IMG/VR virus record: IMGVR_UViG_3300035698_029829
Span: 71,427-135,426 of that record
Origin: a virus
Lineage: Duplodnaviria; Heunggongvirae; Uroviricota; Caudoviricetes
Length of the DNA stretch: 64,000 nt
Reading direction: 5' to 3' (one strand)
Shown here: positions 2,687 through 57,658 of the stretch, in pieces
Layout: each line of letters starts with the position of its first letter
Position numbering within the stretch: position 1 is the stretch's first letter
Position numbers and translations under genes: made by a program
Notes under the pieces: generated by a model
Seen by the model: the letters and a program-made list of their open reading frames with translations, nothing else
The model's database searches: none
What the model was told of the DNA's origin: nothing

Positions 2687-2722
2687 CTATTACCAAAACC
2701 AGAGCAGTTTGTCAAGAGTTTT
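2687..2722 (-). promoter_or_regulatory. conserved sigma70-like promoter (AAAACTCTTGACAAAC-N-TAATAG)
   Basis: Minus-strand TTGACA, 17-nt spacer, TAATAG, then RBS and ATG of gene 1913..2638; member of 13-copy motif family. Confidence 0.6.
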
Positions 2723-2723
2723 A

Positions 2724-4124
2724 TTACAAACCGAGCCTCATTTTTGGGAGGCGTTCGAGATCCAAAAACCGCTCGAAGAGGAGGCCGTGCCGAATCGAGT
2801 CCACCTGCGTGATGCCCGCCAACCACGCCACAAGTGACCCTCCTACAGACCCGCGCCCCGGTCCCCGTGCAATGCCGTGCTCATCGCAAAATTGAGCCAC
2901 GTCTGAGAAAAGTAGCATGTAATCAGCCGACTGGAGCATCAAGATGATCTTCATTTCAAAAGCCAAACGCTCCTCGTAATCACCACGCCGCTCGACGGAG
3001 ATACGGCTGTCCGCCAGACGCACCTCCAATCCATCTCGGCAGCGCCGCCACAGCTCTTCCTCGGCATCCGCCCGCATGGGTAGACGTGGGGTGTGCTCCA
3101 GCCGCATAGGACGTGCTAAACTGGCGATGTATTCTAAGTTCTCCAAACACCCACGAAAAATGTCTTCGGTAAATTCCTCGTTACGGTGAGTCCGATAAAA
3201 AGACGCCCATATCTCAGTCACATCCTTCACAAACAAATCGCGTGCCTCGAACTCCCAAACGTTGTCCTCAGCGGCCAGCGCATCCAGGGACTTGCCCGCC
3301 CGAATGCTGTCAATATTGAGCAAAATCGGATGCAGCTCAGCATCCTCCTTGCGAAGGTAATGGGCATCGCACGAAAAGATGAGTGGAGTCCTGGTCTCCT
3401 TGGCCAATCGAATCAATCGACGGTTCAACTCCACCTGTTTATCCCACTCGATAAGCATTAATTCGATAAAAAAGCGACCTGGAAATGCCTCCTTAAAACG
3501 TCCAACCAGATGCCGCGCCTCGGCCCAGCTATCACGTAAAACCAGTTGGGGTACCTCACCCGCGAAACAGGCGGTTGAGATGACGAGACCCTCGGCGTTA
3601 GCCATCACCCGCTCGTTTGTCGTACGTGCATTCCGGTAAAAGCCGTTCGCCTGCGCCTCGTTGTGAATCTTCAGCAGGTTGTAATAGCCGGTCTGATTAT
3701 GGGCTAGCAATACCAAATGGTAAACCCGCGATAAGGCACGCCGTAGCCTCTCGCGTTCCTTTTTATCCTTGAATATCTTGACGTTCCTCAAGCGCTCCCG
3801 GTCGCGCAACAGATCGTCGCGGTAAGGCGACGTATATGCCTCCAAACCAATCATTGGCAGGAGTCCAGCTTTGTTGGCACGCCAATACAGCTCATAAGCG
3901 GCCCCCAACAACCCGTGATCCGTCGCAGCAACCACCCGCTGCCCCCGTTCCTTCGCCTGTTCGACGAGCCCAGCAACGGGTATCATGCCATCCCGCAACG
4001 AGAACACTGTGTGCAGGTGGGAGTGGAAGAATTTTTCCGGCCGTATCCACTCCGGCATCGGTGGAAGATCAACCACATCAACCTTTGCACGACTCGTCTC
4101 CCTGTTAAGATCCATCGTCGCCAC
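2724..4124 (-). CDS. DNA polymerase III alpha (DnaE) N-terminal fragment: PHP domain, ends just before catalytic PDFDxDF
   Basis: 'HSHLHTVFSLRDG', 'VAATDHG', 'LLAHNQTGYYNL', 'CDAHYL' and 'GPGRGSVGGSLVAWLAGIT..LLFERFLDLER' match DnaE residues ~1-400. The ORF stops where DnaE has the catalytic 'PDFDIDF'. Confidence 0.7.
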   Translation of the reverse strand: MATMDLNRETSRAKVDVVDLPPMPEWIRPEKFFHSHLHTVFSLRDGMIPVAGLVEQAKERGQRVVAATDHGLLGAAYELYWRANKAGLLPMIGLEAYTSPYRDDLLRDRERLRNVKIFKDKKERERLRRALSRVYHLVLLAHNQTGYYNLLKIHNEAQANGFYRNARTTNERVMANAEGLVISTACFAGEVPQLVLRDSWAEARHLVGRFKEAFPGRFFIELMLIEWDKQVELNRRLIRLAKETRTPLIFSCDAHYLRKEDAELHPILLNIDSIRAGKSLDALAAEDNVWEFEARDLFVKDVTEIWASFYRTHRNEEFTEDIFRGCLENLEYIASLARPMRLEHTPRLPMRADAEEELWRRCRDGLEVRLADSRISVERRGDYEERLAFEMKIILMLQSADYMLLFSDVAQFCDEHGIARGPGRGSVGGSLVAWLAGITQVDSIRHGLLFERFLDLERLPKMRLGL

Positions 4125-4677
4125 CCAGTTTCTTCGCTTCCTCCTTAGAAGCCTGTTCTATTCGACTCGCTTCCACCTCTGCATTTGACCGCACGGTTTC
4201 CGGCTCGCTCCCGAAGAACAAAGACGCCAACACCGTACACATCCCCCTGTCATCAAATATACCGAACTCTCCGACGACAAAGCGCGCCACACGCTCCGCT
4301 ATGGAACGCCGCACGTTCGCCGGGAAGACCTCTATATCTACGTCGGCGCGTACCCCTTTGCAGACAGCGCGTGCCAAGTCGAACTGAAGTTTGAACCGAT
4401 GCACCTCCTGTGCAAGACTCGCGCTCTGGTCCGGCTGCACCTCCTGGGTAACACCACGACCGCCGCAAGCTCCGCAGCCTACGCCCCCACAGGAACCACA
4501 AGCATAGAATGTGCGGATCGAGACGCTTTCCTCCTGCACCGACGCCACCATCACGAAGCGCCCTTCCGGAAGTTCAAGTGGTCGAGAGACCGTCTGAGTT
4601 TGAATTTGTGTTTCCATCATCTTGCTCCTGCCTCTCCTCGACGCCAATGACAAGCCGCGCTTCCACGAGCCGCTCAC
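4105..4677 (-). CDS. hypothetical Cys/Gly-rich protein (start uncertain, possibly Met20)
   Basis: 190-aa ORF with 'CGSCGGVGCGACGG'. Confidence 0.4.
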   Translation of the reverse strand: MSGSWKRGLSLASRRGRSKMMETQIQTQTVSRPLELPEGRFVMVASVQEESVSIRTFYACGSCGGVGCGACGGRGVTQEVQPDQSASLAQEVHRFKLQFDLARAVCKGVRADVDIEVFPANVRRSIAERVARFVVGEFGIFDDRGMCTVLASLFFGSEPETVRSNAEVEASRIEQASKEEAKKLGGDDGS

Positions 4678-5596
4678 CTGCCTGCGCCTTCTTTAGCGCG
4701 GCCATCAACCTCCGCGCATGGTCCTTTAGATCGTCATGATGAAACCGCTCCAGGTACTGAGGGTGATCAAAGCAAATCACTCCCCGCTGTTTATCCTCAA
4801 AATGATCCGGTCTATTCCACTTCTTCCACCACGTTATCGCCTGGTCTCCCAACAAAACTACGGCCTCGGGCTGCAACAAATTTAATACTGCGTACTCAGA
4901 AGGCTCATCCCAAAAATTCGCCGTGTTCAAAAAATGCAATTCGCCCTCCTGAAGCTCTGCCTCATCGAGCAGCTTACCGAGGTAATCATCACTACCGCCC
5001 AACGTCCCAAAAGGCGGGGCGAATGGATCATGTGGCGAAGGTGCATCGCCTACTAAGACGACACGAGGAGCAAGCGATCCACTGCCATAGCGTCGGTTAT
5101 TAGCCATTTCATAACGCCGAGCAAACTGGAAGAAGTCATTAGCCTCCCTGGCCCGTAGCTCCAACTCATCCTCATCAAAGGACAATACCATCGACCATGG
5201 CAATCCTTGAAGACCGTTATTAAGCAGGTCAAAACAGCGTTTCCGTGCTACGCGTTCGGCCTCCACCACATCTACTGGCAAACCAGCAACCGCTTCCTCG
5301 TCGAGTTGAGGTTCCGCGTGCAGGATAAAACCGCCGCGAACGAGCACTTCTCGACACCATCGTCGCAGATAGTTGGGAGGAAGCTCAGCCTCCCCCTCCG
5401 CTAATACATTCGGCAGTGTCCACCCATAAACGATAGTATCGCCTCCACCAGCCACCGCATCCAAGTGATACCGCCATAGCGGGATCTCCACAGTAGGACG
5501 GCGTGCACAGGCGACGGCGCGCCAGCCTAAAAAAGACTGGAGTGCAGCGGCTACCTGCGAACCCACTTCTTCTTGTCTACTGAAAACCACGATCAT
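4574..5596 (-). CDS. hypothetical protein
   Basis: 340-aa ORF in the minus-strand gene train. Confidence 0.5.
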   Translation of the reverse strand: MIVVFSRQEEVGSQVAAALQSFLGWRAVACARRPTVEIPLWRYHLDAVAGGGDTIVYGWTLPNVLAEGEAELPPNYLRRWCREVLVRGGFILHAEPQLDEEAVAGLPVDVVEAERVARKRCFDLLNNGLQGLPWSMVLSFDEDELELRAREANDFFQFARRYEMANNRRYGSGSLAPRVVLVGDAPSPHDPFAPPFGTLGGSDDYLGKLLDEAELQEGELHFLNTANFWDEPSEYAVLNLLQPEAVVLLGDQAITWWKKWNRPDHFEDKQRGVICFDHPQYLERFHHDDLKDHARRLMAALKKAQAGERLVEARLVIGVEERQEQDDGNTNSNSDGLSTT

Positions 5597-56547: not shown

Positions 56548-56805
56548 CTACGCCTTCTTTCCTTTACGTGGACACCAATCCGCTCCACTCTGACTTTTCT
56601 TCTTGGCTACCCCTGTGAAATCCACGCGCGCCGGTCGCAGGTCCACGCGGTATTCCCGCCCGCATTCGCAGATGTGGGAGCCAATAATCGACTCGTCGCC
56701 CACGATCTCCCGAATGAAGGCCAGCTCACGTCCGCAAGGACAGACCTTCCGAGCAACAACATTTGTCTTGATCAGACCTTCCTTCGACGCCTTCTTCACT
56801 GCCAT
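56548..56805 (-). CDS. hypothetical zinc-ribbon protein
   Basis: 'CPCGRE...CECGREY'. Confidence 0.4.
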   Translation of the reverse strand: MAVKKASKEGLIKTNVVARKVCPCGRELAFIREIVGDESIIGSHICECGREYRVDLRPARVDFTGVAKKKSQSGADWCPRKGKKA

Positions 56806-57212
56806 CAGTTTTCCCCCACCGCGAGCGGTTTCAGCACCCCGGCAATCCGCTCAACCTCGGCGTCCAACGGCCCCTGGTCCACCGCGTAAGCACAGGGCCG
56901 GTCAACACCGAACGTCTGCGCGATCACCGGCGACCCCCATCGACGGCCATGCCAACCACCATCCCCTATCGGATCATTCTGAAGGTAGACCTTGAACTTC
57001 CTGCTGAGCGTCGACTCGTCGTTGTAAATCGCCGCGTCCTCCGGAGAGGCGCAGACCGCCCAGACACCCTCGCCATTTCCGCGCGCCGCGTCCCCCCGAG
57101 CCAGGTTAACCTTTATGCGGCCGCCGCATCGTTCACTCAGGTCCTTGAGATGCGCCTCGAATTCCTTGGTCGTCTTTCCGGTGAACTCACTCATCGATTC
57201 CTCCTCACGCAC
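56805..57212 (-). CDS. hypothetical protein
   Basis: 135-aa ORF. Confidence 0.4.
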   Translation of the reverse strand: MREEESMSEFTGKTTKEFEAHLKDLSERCGGRIKVNLARGDAARGNGEGVWAVCASPEDAAIYNDESTLSRKFKVYLQNDPIGDGGWHGRRWGSPVIAQTFGVDRPCAYAVDQGPLDAEVERIAGVLKPLAVGEN

Positions 57213-57603
57213 ATTCTGGATTGAGTACCCAACAAAACGCCCCCACCGAACATAGGCTCAGAGGAAGAGCACAAGCAGCATCGAGTCCAGTCCTCGTAAG
57301 TTCCGGTTGCGTCGCCACAGCTTCAACAATCAACTGGGCGATATATCGCTTGGTCAGTGCGCAGTAGGGAGACCCAACGTCTCCGTCGATCCGGCCCAGG
57401 ATATCCCACAGATTATGACGGGAAAACCGCTGCATCAGCGTATCAATCCGCTCATCCCGCGAAAGCCGCCGCACAGGTTTTACCCGAACATTGGCATCTG
57501 AGGTGCCGGATCTCTTGCACACCATCGCCAGGCGTCCCCGCGCAGAGCGCCGGAGTTGAGCCCGAGCATCCTCTTCTCGTTTTATCTGCGTATGTGTTTT
57601 CAT
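57205..57603 (-). CDS. hypothetical protein
   Basis: ATG (MKTHTQ) after GAAAGGA RBS and promoter. Confidence 0.4.
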   Translation of the reverse strand: MKTHTQIKREEDARAQLRRSARGRLAMVCKRSGTSDANVRVKPVRRLSRDERIDTLMQRFSRHNLWDILGRIDGDVGSPYCALTKRYIAQLIVEAVATQPELTRTGLDAACALPLSLCSVGAFCWVLNPECA

Positions 57604-57622
57604 GGCTGGTCCTTTCGACGCC

Positions 57623-57658
57623 ACATTATCAAAGCGCAGGAGGTTTGTCAAGAGTTTT
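57623..57658 (-). promoter_or_regulatory. conserved sigma70-like promoter
   Basis: TTGACAAACCTCCTGCGCTTTGATAATGT. Confidence 0.55.

What the first reader, a model, noticed from the sequence alone, without database searches (positions are those of the whole stretch)
2687..57658. A 13-copy, highly conserved extended promoter: AAAACTCTTGACAAAC-N8-GGTTTTGG-TAtaaT, always gene-proximal and including one divergent pair
The 15-mer TTTGTCAAGAGTTTT (plus strand), equal to AAAACTCTTGACAAA on the minus strand, recurs at 2708, 10307, 12143, 22755, 28371, 32567, 36205, 41903, 46832, 49398, 49876 and 57644. A reversed copy sits at 36232-36250.

In every case it provides a perfect TTGACA -35, then 17 nt, then a TA-rich -10 (perfect TATAAT at 36265 and 49377), then an RBS and ATG.

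The TTG-ACA-AAC reading also explains why many ORF-track entries begin 'MTN...'. The true starts are the downstream ATGs.

The conserved flank AAAACTC and the GGTTTTGG block ahead of the -10 suggest an UP-element or extended -10, or a binding site for a phage regulator. This defines the transcription-unit structure of the region.
Basis: seen in the sequence. Interest (0 to 1): 0.6.

Follow-up and report, generated by a model that had tools for sequence, protein, structure and literature searches.

The report
Uniform host-type promoter family in a phage
A large, uncultured phage-like genome starts at least 13 of its operons with copies of one near-perfect bacterial promoter; this is an ordinary kind of phage signal, notable only because its 12-base core never varies.

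Summary
Thirteen sites, 12 on the minus strand and one on the plus strand, share an invariant CTCTTGACAAAC. Each also has a short A-tract upstream, TTT at -17 to -15, and TA exactly 17 nt after TTGACA. No site has 1-2 mismatches. All 13 lie in the ~7% of the window that is intergenic, and all point into the adjacent downstream gene or, at 46839, an inserted IS element.

The core is conserved across relatives. A syntenic relative (RNR 69% identical) has the same 12-mer at three orthologous gaps (36/36 bases), while the flanks are only ~31% identical. Seven more copies lie just outside the window on contigs of the same phage.

The motif is not private to this phage:
- 13 nt (AACTCTTGACAAA) match the in-vitro "full-consensus" primary-sigma promoter.
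- The exact 16-mer heads tRNA genes, rRNA operons and T-box leaders in many bacterial genomes.
- Unrelated viral contigs carry it in several copies.

Best reading: promoters for the host's primary-sigma RNA polymerase, with an optimal extended -35, an A-tract resembling a proximal UP subsite, and deliberately variable, often weak -10 elements. No phage sigma factor or RNA polymerase was found. A phage factor that also reads the core is not excluded. The host is unresolved.

Verdict: new member of a known kind, modest interest. Side finds include a phage-borne Cas12f/V-U4-like CRISPR locus.

The parts
2687..2722 (-). Promoter copy. AAAACTC-TTGACA-AAC, 17-nt spacer, -10 TAATAG. Lies upstream of ORF 1913-2638. 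The stop codon of the DnaE-like gene sits inside the A-tract.
10286..10321 (-). Promoter copy, -10 TAAAAC. Lies upstream of the AAA+ ATPase (8795-10237) and VWA/DUF2201 operon. An orthologous copy exists in L246 at 15988.
12122..12157 (-). Promoter copy, -10 TATGAA. Lies directly after the RNR gene and upstream of ORF 11626-12099 and the C5 methylase. An orthologous copy exists in L246 at 14111.
22734..22769 (-). Promoter copy, -10 TAGAAC. The ATG of the PP2C-like gene (21830-22726) sits at the predicted +1/+2, so the mRNA looks leaderless. An orthologous copy with the same geometry exists in L246 at 425.
28350..28385 (-). Promoter copy, TGA-TAGCCT. Lies upstream of ORF 27702-28331.
32546..32581 (-). 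Promoter copy, -10 TATGGT. Lies upstream of the SPFH/Band7 gene 31445-32494.
35422..35457 (-). Degenerate relative of the motif (AAAACTTTTGATAAAC) with no credible -10. Lies just upstream of ORF 33611-35434. Probably a decayed or very weak copy, and not counted in the family.
36184..36219 (-). Promoter copy, -10 TAGGAT, the minus-strand member of the back-to-back divergent pair. Lies upstream of ORF 35793-36161.
36235..36270 (+). The only plus-strand copy. AAAGTCTC-TTGACA-AAC with TGG-TATAAT, the best -10 in the set. Drives ORF 36312/36339-37187. Its -35 lies 24 bp from the -35 of the 36212 copy.
41882..41917 (-). Promoter copy, -10 TAGTCT. Lies upstream of the GP17-like (superinfection-exclusion family) gene 41569-41859.
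46811..46846 (-). Promoter copy, -10 TAGATT. It now fires antisense into an inserted IS605-type TnpB element (about 45.42-46.80 kb). The next minus-strand gene is 44719-45405.
49377..49412 (-). Promoter copy, TGG-TATAAT. Lies upstream of the 462-aa gene (47957-49345), the XRE-type HTH gene and the Septknot gene. Distant relatives have a promoter of the same type at this position (L115, L118).
49855..49890 (-). Promoter copy, -10 TAGGAT. Lies upstream of the 74-aa ORF 49605-49829. It diverges from the plus-strand gene 49933-51240, which has no motif of its own.
57623..57658 (-). Promoter copy, TGA-TAATGT. It heads a run of about 13 small co-directional ORFs between 57603 and about 51.4 kb.

Best explanation
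The 13 copies, and at least 20 across about 82 kb of this phage-like genome, are promoters read by the host's primary-sigma (sigma-70/sigma-A) RNA polymerase.

**Proposed parts of each promoter**
- **Core.** The invariant 12-mer CTC-TTGACA-AAC is an optimal 'extended -35'. Sigma region 4 would bind TTGACA, and the flanking CTC and AA(C) would add affinity.
- **A-tract.** The short A-tract at -42 to -39 would act like a proximal UP subsite for the alpha C-terminal domain.
- **Downstream half.** T at -17 to -15, G at -14 in about half the copies, and TA at -12/-11 supply a minimal -10 or partial extended -10. The rest of the -10 hexamer differs between copies.

**Proposed behaviour**
RNA polymerase recruitment would therefore be maximal and uniform. 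Open-complex formation and output would be tuned copy by copy through the -10. The promoters sit in very short gaps, often overlapping the stop codon of the gene before, and no terminator separates them from the upstream gene. They would therefore act as serial boosters along long co-directional operons of replication, nucleotide-metabolism and host-interaction genes. This fits early or constitutive expression that competes with the host's own strongest promoters.

**Shown versus inferred**
- Shown: sequence, geometry, position, orientation, cross-relative conservation, identity to the full-consensus promoter, and use at bacterial stable-RNA promoters.
- Inferred: which polymerase and which contacts are involved, the timing, and the strength of each copy.
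For: 1. **Geometry.** All 13 copies have TTGACA, a 17-nt spacer and TA at -12/-11. This holds for 23 of 23 copies when copies on adjoining contigs and in the relative are included.
2. **Position.** All 13 lie in the 7.2% of the window that is intergenic. All point into the adjacent downstream gene or, at 46839, the inserted IS, and 11 of the 13 lie 1-45 nt upstream of a plausible start (36242: 35 or 62 nt; 46839: about 81 nt).
3. **Selection.** In the syntenic relative L246 the 12-mer is 36/36 identical at three orthologous gaps. Identity is 31% upstream, 48% in the spacer, 44% in the -10 and 31% downstream.
4. **Same type in more distant relatives.** L115 and L118 have TTGACA promoters at the orthologous operon start.
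5. **Match to an optimised promoter.** AACTCTTGACAAA (13 nt) is identical to the 'full-consensus promoter' used as an RNA polymerase trap (the same template appears).
6. **Use by bacteria.** The exact 16-mer plus TA gives at least 120 hits in bacterial genomes, where my rough estimate of the chance number is about 17.
   - 15 of 60 loci checked have a co-oriented tRNA gene within about 100 nt.
   - Others head rRNA operons and T-box leaders.
7. **Independent promoters.** Other promoter-like sites in those loci prefer the same bases at each flank position.
8. **Unrelated viral contigs.** Several carry 2-5 copies of the 12-mer followed by TGTGnTATAAT.
9. **No phage polymerase.** Pfam scans, and the precomputed Pfam hits on three overlapping contigs, show no sigma factor and no RNA polymerase.
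10. **Modularity.** Four copies beyond the window keep the core but replace the A-tract with a palindrome.
Against: - There is no transcription data, so start sites, timing and the polymerase are all inferred.
- The uniformity is far tighter than in ordinary sigma-70 promoter sets. There are no copies with 1-2 mismatches. Under the flank frequencies of generic strong promoters, 13 identical copies have a probability of about 1e-30. Selection for RNA polymerase affinity alone may not explain that.
- Four of the 13 copies lack the normally critical T at -7, and the mean match to TATAAT is about 4 of 6. The generic promoter scan missed all three copies in 1-20 kb.
- The A-tract is short, and no distal UP subsite is conserved. 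One orthologous copy in L246 has almost no A-tract.
- Flank consensus differs between phage lineages: CTC..AAC here, TCC..AAGT in L115..TTGACATTrG in L118.
  - This could reflect a co-evolving phage factor, or copying within each genome.
- The host is unknown, so 'host polymerase optimum' cannot be tied to a particular enzyme.
Confidence: 0.7

Rival explanations
1. Dual-purpose element. The sites are host-polymerase promoters, but the invariant 12-mer is also the binding site of a phage-encoded factor. That factor would be a global repressor or activator, or a protein that remodels sigma region 4, and it would switch all copies on or off together. The design of a perfect -35 with a weak -10 would make the whole class fully dependent on -35 recognition. 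That would make it easy to shut off, while a -35-independent class takes over.
For: - All-or-none invariance of 12 bp in 13 of 13 copies. Across all 23 copies there are only 4 base changes, confined to 3 copies that lie outside the window. This is much tighter than in generic promoters.
- The core stays invariant in a relative whose flanks are randomised.
- Flank consensus is lineage-specific in more distant relatives.
- A subset of copies carries an operator-like palindrome, AAATGAAC-N6-GTTCATTT, abutting the same core. This shows that regulators do act on this promoter family.
- A second motif, CTGGTWAGYW, reads as an extended -10 with no -35. It occurs 4 times against 0.35 expected, and two copies are conserved in L246.
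- Phage proteins that bind sigma and selectively block UP-dependent promoters are known, for example phage G1 gp67.
Against: - No candidate factor was identified. The only clear DNA-binding domains in view are an XRE-type HTH of 133 aa and a NrdR-like zinc ribbon.
- The identical 12-mer is used at bacterial tRNA and rRNA promoters, in unrelated viral contigs, and in the in-vitro optimum. No phage-specific reader is therefore required.
- No copy of the 12-mer lacks the -10 geometry, which a pure operator could do.
Confidence: 0.2
2. The sites are promoters for a phage-encoded sigma factor or RNA polymerase, in the manner of T7-type or SPO1 gp28-type systems. The long invariant core would then be the recognition sequence of that single protein.
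For: - The invariance resembles single-protein recognition sites more than typical sigma-70 promoter sets.
- Only about 82 kb of a probably larger genome was seen, so such a gene could lie elsewhere.
Against: - The core is the canonical TTGACA with canonical 17-nt spacing to TA. It equals the full-consensus sigma-70 promoter and bacterial stable-RNA promoters.
- No sigma or RNA polymerase domains were found in the window or the adjoining contigs.
- A phage that transcribes its replication and host-takeover genes with its own enzyme would still need host-type promoters for that enzyme's gene.
Confidence: 0.05
3. The sites are not promoters. They would be dispersed, oriented protein-binding sites that merely contain TTGACA. 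Possible kinds are stoperator-like repressor sites, as in cluster A mycobacteriophages, or sites for partition, packaging or replication.
For: - The sites are asymmetric, number many copies, have one orientation relative to transcription, and lie in short intergenic gaps. All of this resembles stoperators, whose consensus as I recall it also contains TGTCAAG.
Against: - Every copy has TA at exactly +17 nt and a T-rich -17 to -15 (23 of 23 copies). A pure binding site would not need this.
- Every copy sits at a gene's 5' end, and none lies inside a gene or at a 3' end only.
- Copies are dispersed every 0.5-10.6 kb and are not clustered like iterons or parS sites.
- No integrase or immunity repressor was seen.
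Confidence: 0.03

Closest known systems
'Full-consensus' (full con) primary-sigma promoter obtained by in-vitro selection. Its sequence is printed in PMC4005671 and PMC10990936. The original reference, Gaal et al. 2001, is as cited in PMC3694059.
   Same: It shares 13 contiguous bases, AACTC-TTGACA-AA, including the non-hexamer flanks. It has the same 17-nt spacer, and T at -17 and -15 with G at -14 (TGTGC in full con, TTTKR here).
   Different: - Full con has a near-perfect extended -10 (TGTGCTATACT). The phage copies mostly have weak -10 hexamers, and only 6 of 13 have TGn.
- Position -27 is A in full con and C here.
- Full con is an artificial E. coli optimum. These are natural sites in an unknown host.
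Host-polymerase 'early' promoter families of lytic phages: T4 early, T5, SPO1 early, and staphylococcal phage K/G1. This comparison is from general knowledge and was not tested here.
   Same: - Many copies per genome of a near-consensus -35/-10 promoter.
- Conserved bases outside the hexamers, with A/T-rich upstream sequence.
- Placed in front of early or host-takeover operons and read by unmodified host holoenzyme.
   Different: - As far as I recall, those families show graded similarity to a consensus and strong -10 elements.
- Here the -35 region is invariant, with 0 mismatches in 13 of 13 copies, while the -10 is the variable part.
- Timing is unknown.
Stable-RNA promoters with UP elements, for example rrnB P1. 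The UP subsite consensus used is from PMC4132738.
   Same: - An A-tract lies immediately upstream of CTC-TTG..CA.
- The exact 16-mer is found in front of bacterial tRNA genes, rRNA operons and T-box leaders.
   Different: - In the phage copies only 3-5 As, at -42 to -39, are conserved.
- There is no conserved distal subsite.
- The A-tract often doubles as the stop codon region of the upstream gene.
- Four copies replace it with a palindrome.
Stoperators and operators of cluster A mycobacteriophages (L5 gp71 sites). This comparison is from memory.
   Same: - A dispersed, asymmetric site of about 13 bp that contains the -35 hexamer sequence.
- Many copies, with a fixed orientation relative to transcription.
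   Different: - Most stoperators have no -10 and act as roadblocks in lysogens.
- Here every copy has promoter geometry.
- No repressor or integrase was seen.

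Membership tests
Primary-sigma (sigma-70/sigma-A) -35/-10 promoter | A -35 hexamer close to TTGACA | tested here: met
   Perfect TTGACA in 13 of 13 window copies and in 23 of 23 copies overall.
Primary-sigma (sigma-70/sigma-A) -35/-10 promoter | A -10 hexamer of the form TAnnnT, placed 17 +/- 1 nt downstream | tested here: inconclusive
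   The spacer is 17 nt and TA at -12/-11 is present in 13 of 13 copies. T at -7 is present in only 9 of 13 (17 of 23 overall). The mean match to TATAAT is about 4 of 6. The generic scan misses the copies in 1-20 kb.
Primary-sigma (sigma-70/sigma-A) -35/-10 promoter | Located upstream of genes and co-oriented with them | tested here: met
   All 13 copies are intergenic, where 7.2% of the window is intergenic. Twelve point into an adjacent co-oriented ORF. Copy 46839 faces an inserted IS element that it would cross antisense before the next co-oriented gene.
Primary-sigma (sigma-70/sigma-A) -35/-10 promoter | Initiation by host holoenzyme about 7 nt downstream of the -10 | not testable with these tools
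   This needs 5'-end RNA mapping or in-vitro transcription.
UP element (binding site of the alpha C-terminal domain) | Proximal subsite AAAAAARNR at about -46 to -38 | tested here: inconclusive
   A is present at -42, -41 and -40 in 12, 13 and 12 of 13 copies, and at -39 in 9 of 13. The tract is shorter than the consensus quoted in PMC4132738 and shifted relative to it. It is nearly absent in L246 copy 14111.
UP element (binding site of the alpha C-terminal domain) | Distal A/T-rich subsite at about -57 to -47 | tested here: not met
   Information content is about 0 upstream of -46 in the 13 copies. In contrast, the bacterial copies show an AAAA-TTTTT pattern there.
Extended -10 promoter (TGn) | TG at -15/-14 | tested here: not met
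   Only 6 of 13 copies have TGn. T at -15 is present in 11 of 13 and G at -14 in 7 of 13.
Stoperator-type dispersed repressor sites | Most copies lack promoter elements and lie between or within genes as roadblocks | tested here: not met
   Every exact copy has the -10 geometry. No copy lies inside a gene.
Stoperator-type dispersed repressor sites | A cognate immunity repressor and a temperate life style | tested here: inconclusive
   No integrase or recognisable immunity repressor appears in about 82 kb. One XRE-type HTH protein is present. The genome is incomplete.
Promoters for a phage-encoded RNA polymerase or sigma factor | The phage encodes its own RNA polymerase or sigma factor | tested here: inconclusive
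   Pfam finds none in the window or the adjoining contigs. However, many ORFs have no hit at all, and the genome is incomplete.
Promoters for a phage-encoded RNA polymerase or sigma factor | A consensus distinct from host primary-sigma promoters | tested here: not met
   The motif equals the full-consensus promoter and bacterial tRNA and rRNA promoters.

The most novel reading that the evidence does not exclude
The absolutely invariant 12-mer could be more than an optimal -35. It could be the handle of a genome-wide switch. In this reading, a phage factor binds either the 12-mer or sigma region 4 and turns the whole class off or on at once. The class depends on the -35 because its -10 elements are weak. 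A -35-independent class of the form CTGGTAAGYT (extended -10) would then carry on. A palindrome-bearing subclass, AAATGAAC-N6-GTTCATTT fused to the same core, would be regulated separately. That would be a three-tier temporal programme built on one constant core module in an uncultured large phage.
Probability: 0.15. Interest if true: 0.55.

Novelty: new member of a known kind. Interest (0 to 1): 0.3.

Why it matters
- **Transcription map.** It gives a first operon map for about 64 kb of an uncultured, probably large phage: 12 minus-strand units and one divergent plus-strand unit. It also corrects at least five mis-called gene starts.
- **Natural evidence on promoter flanks.** The bases flanking TTGACA (CTC upstream, AA(C) downstream), known from in-vitro selection, are held under strict selection in nature and recur at bacterial stable-RNA promoters.
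- **Practical use.** The family is a graded series with a constant -35/UP part and a variable -10. It could be tested as a promoter set once the host is known.
- **No new principle.** Conserved host-type promoter families are standard in phages.

Tried and rejected
- **Nucleotide similarity to deposited phages:** none, by megablast or blastn. Protein-level relatives are at most 32% identical.
- **Host assignment from the motif's distribution:** 61 of the 80 listed genome titles are Clostridia or other Bacillota, and I first read this as the host lineage. I rejected it as proof for three reasons.
  - The same 16-mer heads tRNA genes in Campylobacterota.
  - It equals an E. coli-derived optimum.
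  - The window's IS605 TnpB has its closest named homologues, at 56-63% identity, in Thermus, Meiothermus and Deinococcus.
  - RNR and CHAP homologues were uninformative. A search for the sample accessions in papers gave nothing useful.
- **Terminators as unit boundaries:** terminator-like sites are not enriched (26 against 19.8 +/- 4.5 in the one 20-kb segment scanned, 1-20,000), and none sits upstream of the copies in that segment.
- **Mobile repeat or recent duplication:** rejected. There is no similarity outside the motif between copies. Orthologous copies keep only the core.
- **Palindromic operator within the motif:** only the trivial TTGaCAA symmetry is present. The GAAC-N6-GTTC dyad found beyond the window is absent from the window's promoters.
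- **Known RNAs driven by the copies:** there are no Rfam matches and no tRNAs in the window.
- **CRISPR repeat scans, meant to fetch relatives:** nothing in IMG/VR. The metagenome scan returned only the same phage.
- **tracrRNA or anti-repeat near the array:** no convincing duplex.
- **Function of the plus-strand gene 36312-37187:** no Pfam, PHROG, PADLOC or PDB sequence hit.

Full report
**1. The observation**

There are 14 hits at <=2 mismatches, against 0.06 expected from shuffles. Extracting all copies in the direction of transcription gives the following:
- 13 sites share an invariant CTCTTGACAAAC.
- A is present at -42, -41 and -40 in 12, 13 and 12 of 13 copies.
- T is present at -17, -16 and -15 in 12, 11 and 11 of 13 copies.
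- TA is invariant at -12/-11, after a 17-nt spacer.

A weight matrix separates these 13 sites (41-53 bits) from everything else in the window (<12 bits). The pattern CTCTTGACAAAC-N14-TA gives 13 sites with zero mismatches and none with one or two. The only two sites with three mismatches are unrelated, and one of them is the promoter of an IS element. The hit at 35443 is a decayed copy without a -10.

- The written consensus should have N6, not N8.
- GGTTTTGG is not conserved as a block.
- TGn occurs in 6 of 13 copies.
- T at -7 occurs in 9 of 13 copies.
- The -10 hexamers are mostly weak. The generic sigma-70 scan misses all three copies in 1-20 kb.

**2. Context**

The window has 55% G+C, and almost all its genes are on the minus strand. 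It is phage-like. Identified genes include:
- a DnaE-type PHP/Pol III alpha fragment, a class II RNR, a C5 methylase and an AAA+/VWA pair;
- an SPFH protein, a PP2C-like phosphatase and a GP17-like protein;
- CHAP and PG-binding genes, a DarG-like macrodomain and three TnpB-like genes;
- many ORFs with no match.

No structural genes, sigma factor or RNA polymerase were seen. Identical DNA exists in several public metagenome assemblies. No deposited phage is similar at the DNA level.

All 13 copies lie in intergenic gaps, which make up 7.2% of the window. All point into the adjacent downstream gene or, at 46839, the inserted IS element; 11 of the 13 lie 1-45 nt upstream of a plausible start (36242: 35 or 62 nt; 46839: about 81 nt). 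The upstream gene's stop codon often sits inside the A-tract. Terminator-like sites are not enriched in the one 20-kb segment scanned, 1-20,000. Five ORF-list entries begin at the TTG of TTGACA, which confirms the 'MTN' artefact.

Special cases:
- Copy 22762 has the ATG of the PP2C-like gene at the predicted +1/+2, so the mRNA looks leaderless.
- Copy 46839 now faces an IS605-type TnpB element. The element is bounded by matching hairpins and has its own promoter.
- Copies 36212 and 36242 are back-to-back, with their -35 hexamers 24 bp apart.

**3. The family continues outside the window and in relatives**

Contigs of the same phage extend both ends.
- Beyond the low end (L241) there are two more copies.
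- Beyond the high end (L245) there are five more. One is standard. Four keep the core but have the palindrome AAATGAAC-N6-GTTCATTT in place of the A-tract, together with better -10 hexamers. That dyad is not found at any promoter inside the window.

A syntenic relative, L246, was found through its RNR (69% identity). It carries the 12-mer at the three orthologous gaps: before the PP2C gene (again leaderless), after the RNR gene, and before the AAA+ gene.

| Region compared (window vs L246, three pairs) | Identity |
|---|---|
| 12-mer core | 36/36 |
| Upstream 30 nt | 31% |
| Rest of spacer | 48% |
| -10 hexamer | 44% |
| Downstream | 31% |

More distant relatives keep a TTGACA promoter at the orthologous operon start, but with other flanks. 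L115 has TCC-TTGACA-AAGT in several copies, and L118 has TTGACATTrG.

**4. The motif is not private to this phage**

- A scan of IMG/VR with AAAACTCTTGACAAAC-N14-TA hit more than 112 contigs. Several unrelated, lower-GC contigs carry 2-5 copies of A-tract, CTCTTGACAAAC, N10 and TGTGnTATAAT.
My rough estimate of the chance number is about 17. Of the 80 listed titles, 61 are Clostridia or other Bacillota.
- Of 60 loci checked, 15 have a co-oriented tRNA gene within about 100 nt. Others head rRNA operons (Oscillibacter L163, L177) and T-box leaders. By eye, some precede CIRCE-type operators.
- Independent promoter-like sites in those loci prefer the same base at each flank position. A after the hexamer is seen in 74% and then 62% of sites, T at -37 in 45% and C at -36 in 38%. 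There is an A-tract at -44 to -40 and a T-tract further upstream.
- The 'full-consensus promoter' used as an RNA polymerase trap reads ...ttaaCTCTTGACAAAagtgttaaattgtgcTATACT..., so it shares 13 nt with the phage motif.
- The A-tract loosely fits the proximal UP subsite consensus AAAAAARNR, and TTTKR loosely fits the consensus extended -10, -17 TGTGC -13.

**5. Mechanism**

The simplest account is that these are promoters for the host's primary-sigma holoenzyme. Each has an optimal extended -35 and a short proximal UP-like tract, which would give uniform, maximal recruitment. The variable and often weak -10 would set output copy by copy. The copies would act as serial boosters along co-directional operons.

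What this account does not fully explain is the all-or-none invariance. Under generic promoter flank frequencies, the chance of 13 identical flank sets is about 1e-30. The lineage-specific flanks in distant relatives are also unexplained.

I therefore keep a 0.2 rival in which a phage factor also reads the core, or targets sigma region 4. Phage proteins that bind sigma and selectively disable UP-dependent promoters are known, for example gp67. A promoter for a phage sigma factor or RNA polymerase is unlikely, and so is a non-promoter role, for the reasons listed under the rivals.

**6. Host**

The host is unresolved. The motif's distribution points to Clostridia. However, the IS605 TnpB's closest named homologues are from Deinococcota, at 56-63% identity. 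RNR and CHAP homologues are uninformative. Leaderless starts and strong GGAGG ribosome-binding sites fit several phyla. I therefore treat the motif as the generic primary-sigma optimum, not as a marker of any lineage.

**7. Verdict**

This is a new member of a well-known kind, the host-type promoter families of phages. Its unusual features are a rigid core and a modular upstream part. Interest is modest at 0.3. The more interesting reading, a core-directed global switch, has a probability of about 0.15.

**8. Seen in passing**

The most notable side observation is a 10-repeat CRISPR array at 58937-59566. It lies directly downstream of a 511-aa TnpB/Cas12f/V-U4-like gene at 59791-61326. The other items are listed separately.

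Noticed in passing
window 58937-59566 (array) and 59791-61326 (-): A CRISPR array of 10 repeats of 36 nt (GTTGCGATTACCCCTCAAACGGAGGGTGTTCACACC on the + strand) with 9 unique 30-nt spacers. The repeats degenerate at the low-coordinate end.

The array lies directly downstream, on the same strand, of a 511-aa TnpB/Cas12f-like gene.
- Pfam: HTH_OrfB_IS605, OrfB_IS605 and Cas12f1-like TNB.
- PADLOC: Cas12u4 at 1e-54 and Cas12f at 7e-54.
- Closest PDB sequences: TnpB of ISDra2 and 'TranC' chains.

No adaptation genes were seen among the gene calls upstream of the effector (precomputed Pfam); nothing beyond the 385-aa ORF below the array was checked. The repeat is absent from IMG/VR. No clear anti-repeat was found, and there is no Rfam hit. 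This looks like a phage-borne compact type V system.
   Followed up: partly
window 5967-5976, 15578-15587, 17626-17635, 52396-52405 (all -): A second recurrent intergenic motif, CTGGTWAGYW, occurs 4 times against 0.35 expected. Each copy lies 15-30 nt upstream of a ribosome-binding site and start codon. It reads as an extended -10 (TGnTAAGYT) with no TTGACA upstream. Two copies are conserved at orthologous gaps in the relative L246. It is a candidate -35-independent promoter class. The pattern was defined after seeing the sites, so the statistics are soft.
   Followed up: partly
L245 134, 1405, 4653, 5532 (same phage; window-equivalent about 66.5-71.9 kb, beyond the high end): Four promoters keep the core (C/T)(T/C)C-TTGACA-AA(C/A) but replace the A-tract with a perfect palindrome, AAATGAAC-N6-GTTCATTT, centred near -50.5. 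Their -10 hexamers are better (TATAAT twice, TACAAT, TAAAGT). This looks like an operator for a dimeric regulator grafted onto the same core. The binding protein was not identified.
   Followed up: partly
window about 45420-46805 (+), 29159-30304 (-); L246 8349-9398: An IS605-type element carrying only TnpB (403 aa, 45539-46750) is bounded by similar hairpins: CCCACGGTTTCAACCGTGGG and CCACGGCTTAAGCCGTGG. It has its own TTGACG-17-TATACT promoter. It is inserted between promoter copy 46839 and the next gene, so that promoter now reads antisense through it.

A further TnpB gene lies at 29159-30304. In the relative L246, a TnpB element sits in the gap orthologous to window 15587. The closest named homologues of the 45.5-kb TnpB are from Thermus, Meiothermus and Deinococcus, at 56-63% identity.
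   Followed up: partly
window 22726 (start of 21830-22726, -) and L246 460: The PP2C-like phosphatase gene starts with an ATG 6-7 nt after the -10 hexamer, both in the window and in the relative. This suggests a conserved leaderless mRNA.
   Followed up: partly
window 28387-28881 (-): A macro-domain protein matches the PADLOC DarG profile strongly (8e-61). It may be a phage counter-defence against DarT-type ADP-ribosylation of DNA.
   Followed up: no
window 2724-4124 (-) and 1913-2638 (-): The DnaE-like ORF has only 466 aa, comprising the PHP domain and the start of the Pol III alpha domain. It ends right at promoter copy 2715. The next ORF (241 aa) has no Pfam hit, and the rest of a Pol III alpha is not nearby. 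This may be a split or truncated polymerase.
   Followed up: no
window 7790-8000, inside ORF 6876-8795 (-): A 27-bp tandem repeat, giving about 8 copies of a 9-aa unit, lies inside the VWA/DUF2201 protein. This region gives weak PHROG hits to tail fibres.
   Followed up: no
L193 (Acutalibacteraceae MAG contig), L029, L031, L076 and others (IMG/VR): Unrelated, lower-GC contigs carry tandemly oriented arrays of the same promoter type: A-tract, nnC-TTGACAAAC, N10 and TGTGnTATAAT. The promoters recur every 300-600 bp in front of small ORFs. These are probably early regions of other phages.
   Followed up: partly
L241 beyond the window's low end (window-equivalent about -0.4 to -9 kb): The same phage carries NAD-salvage genes (QRPTase-like, NAD synthase, a nucleotidyltransferase), a NUDIX gene, a CCA-adding/PolyA_pol enzyme and, by eye, what looks like a tRNA gene (not checked with a tRNA finder). 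ORF 891-1613 in the window is RNase HII.
   Followed up: no
L131, L134, L139, L188, L199, L238 (Bacteroidales/Rikenellaceae genome loci): In Bacteroidota genomes the same AAAACTCTTGACAAAC is followed by TAnnTTTG-type elements (TATCTTTG, TATATTTG) at the -10 position. This may be a hybrid of the TTGACA context with the Bacteroidetes -7 motif. I noted it by eye only.
   Followed up: no
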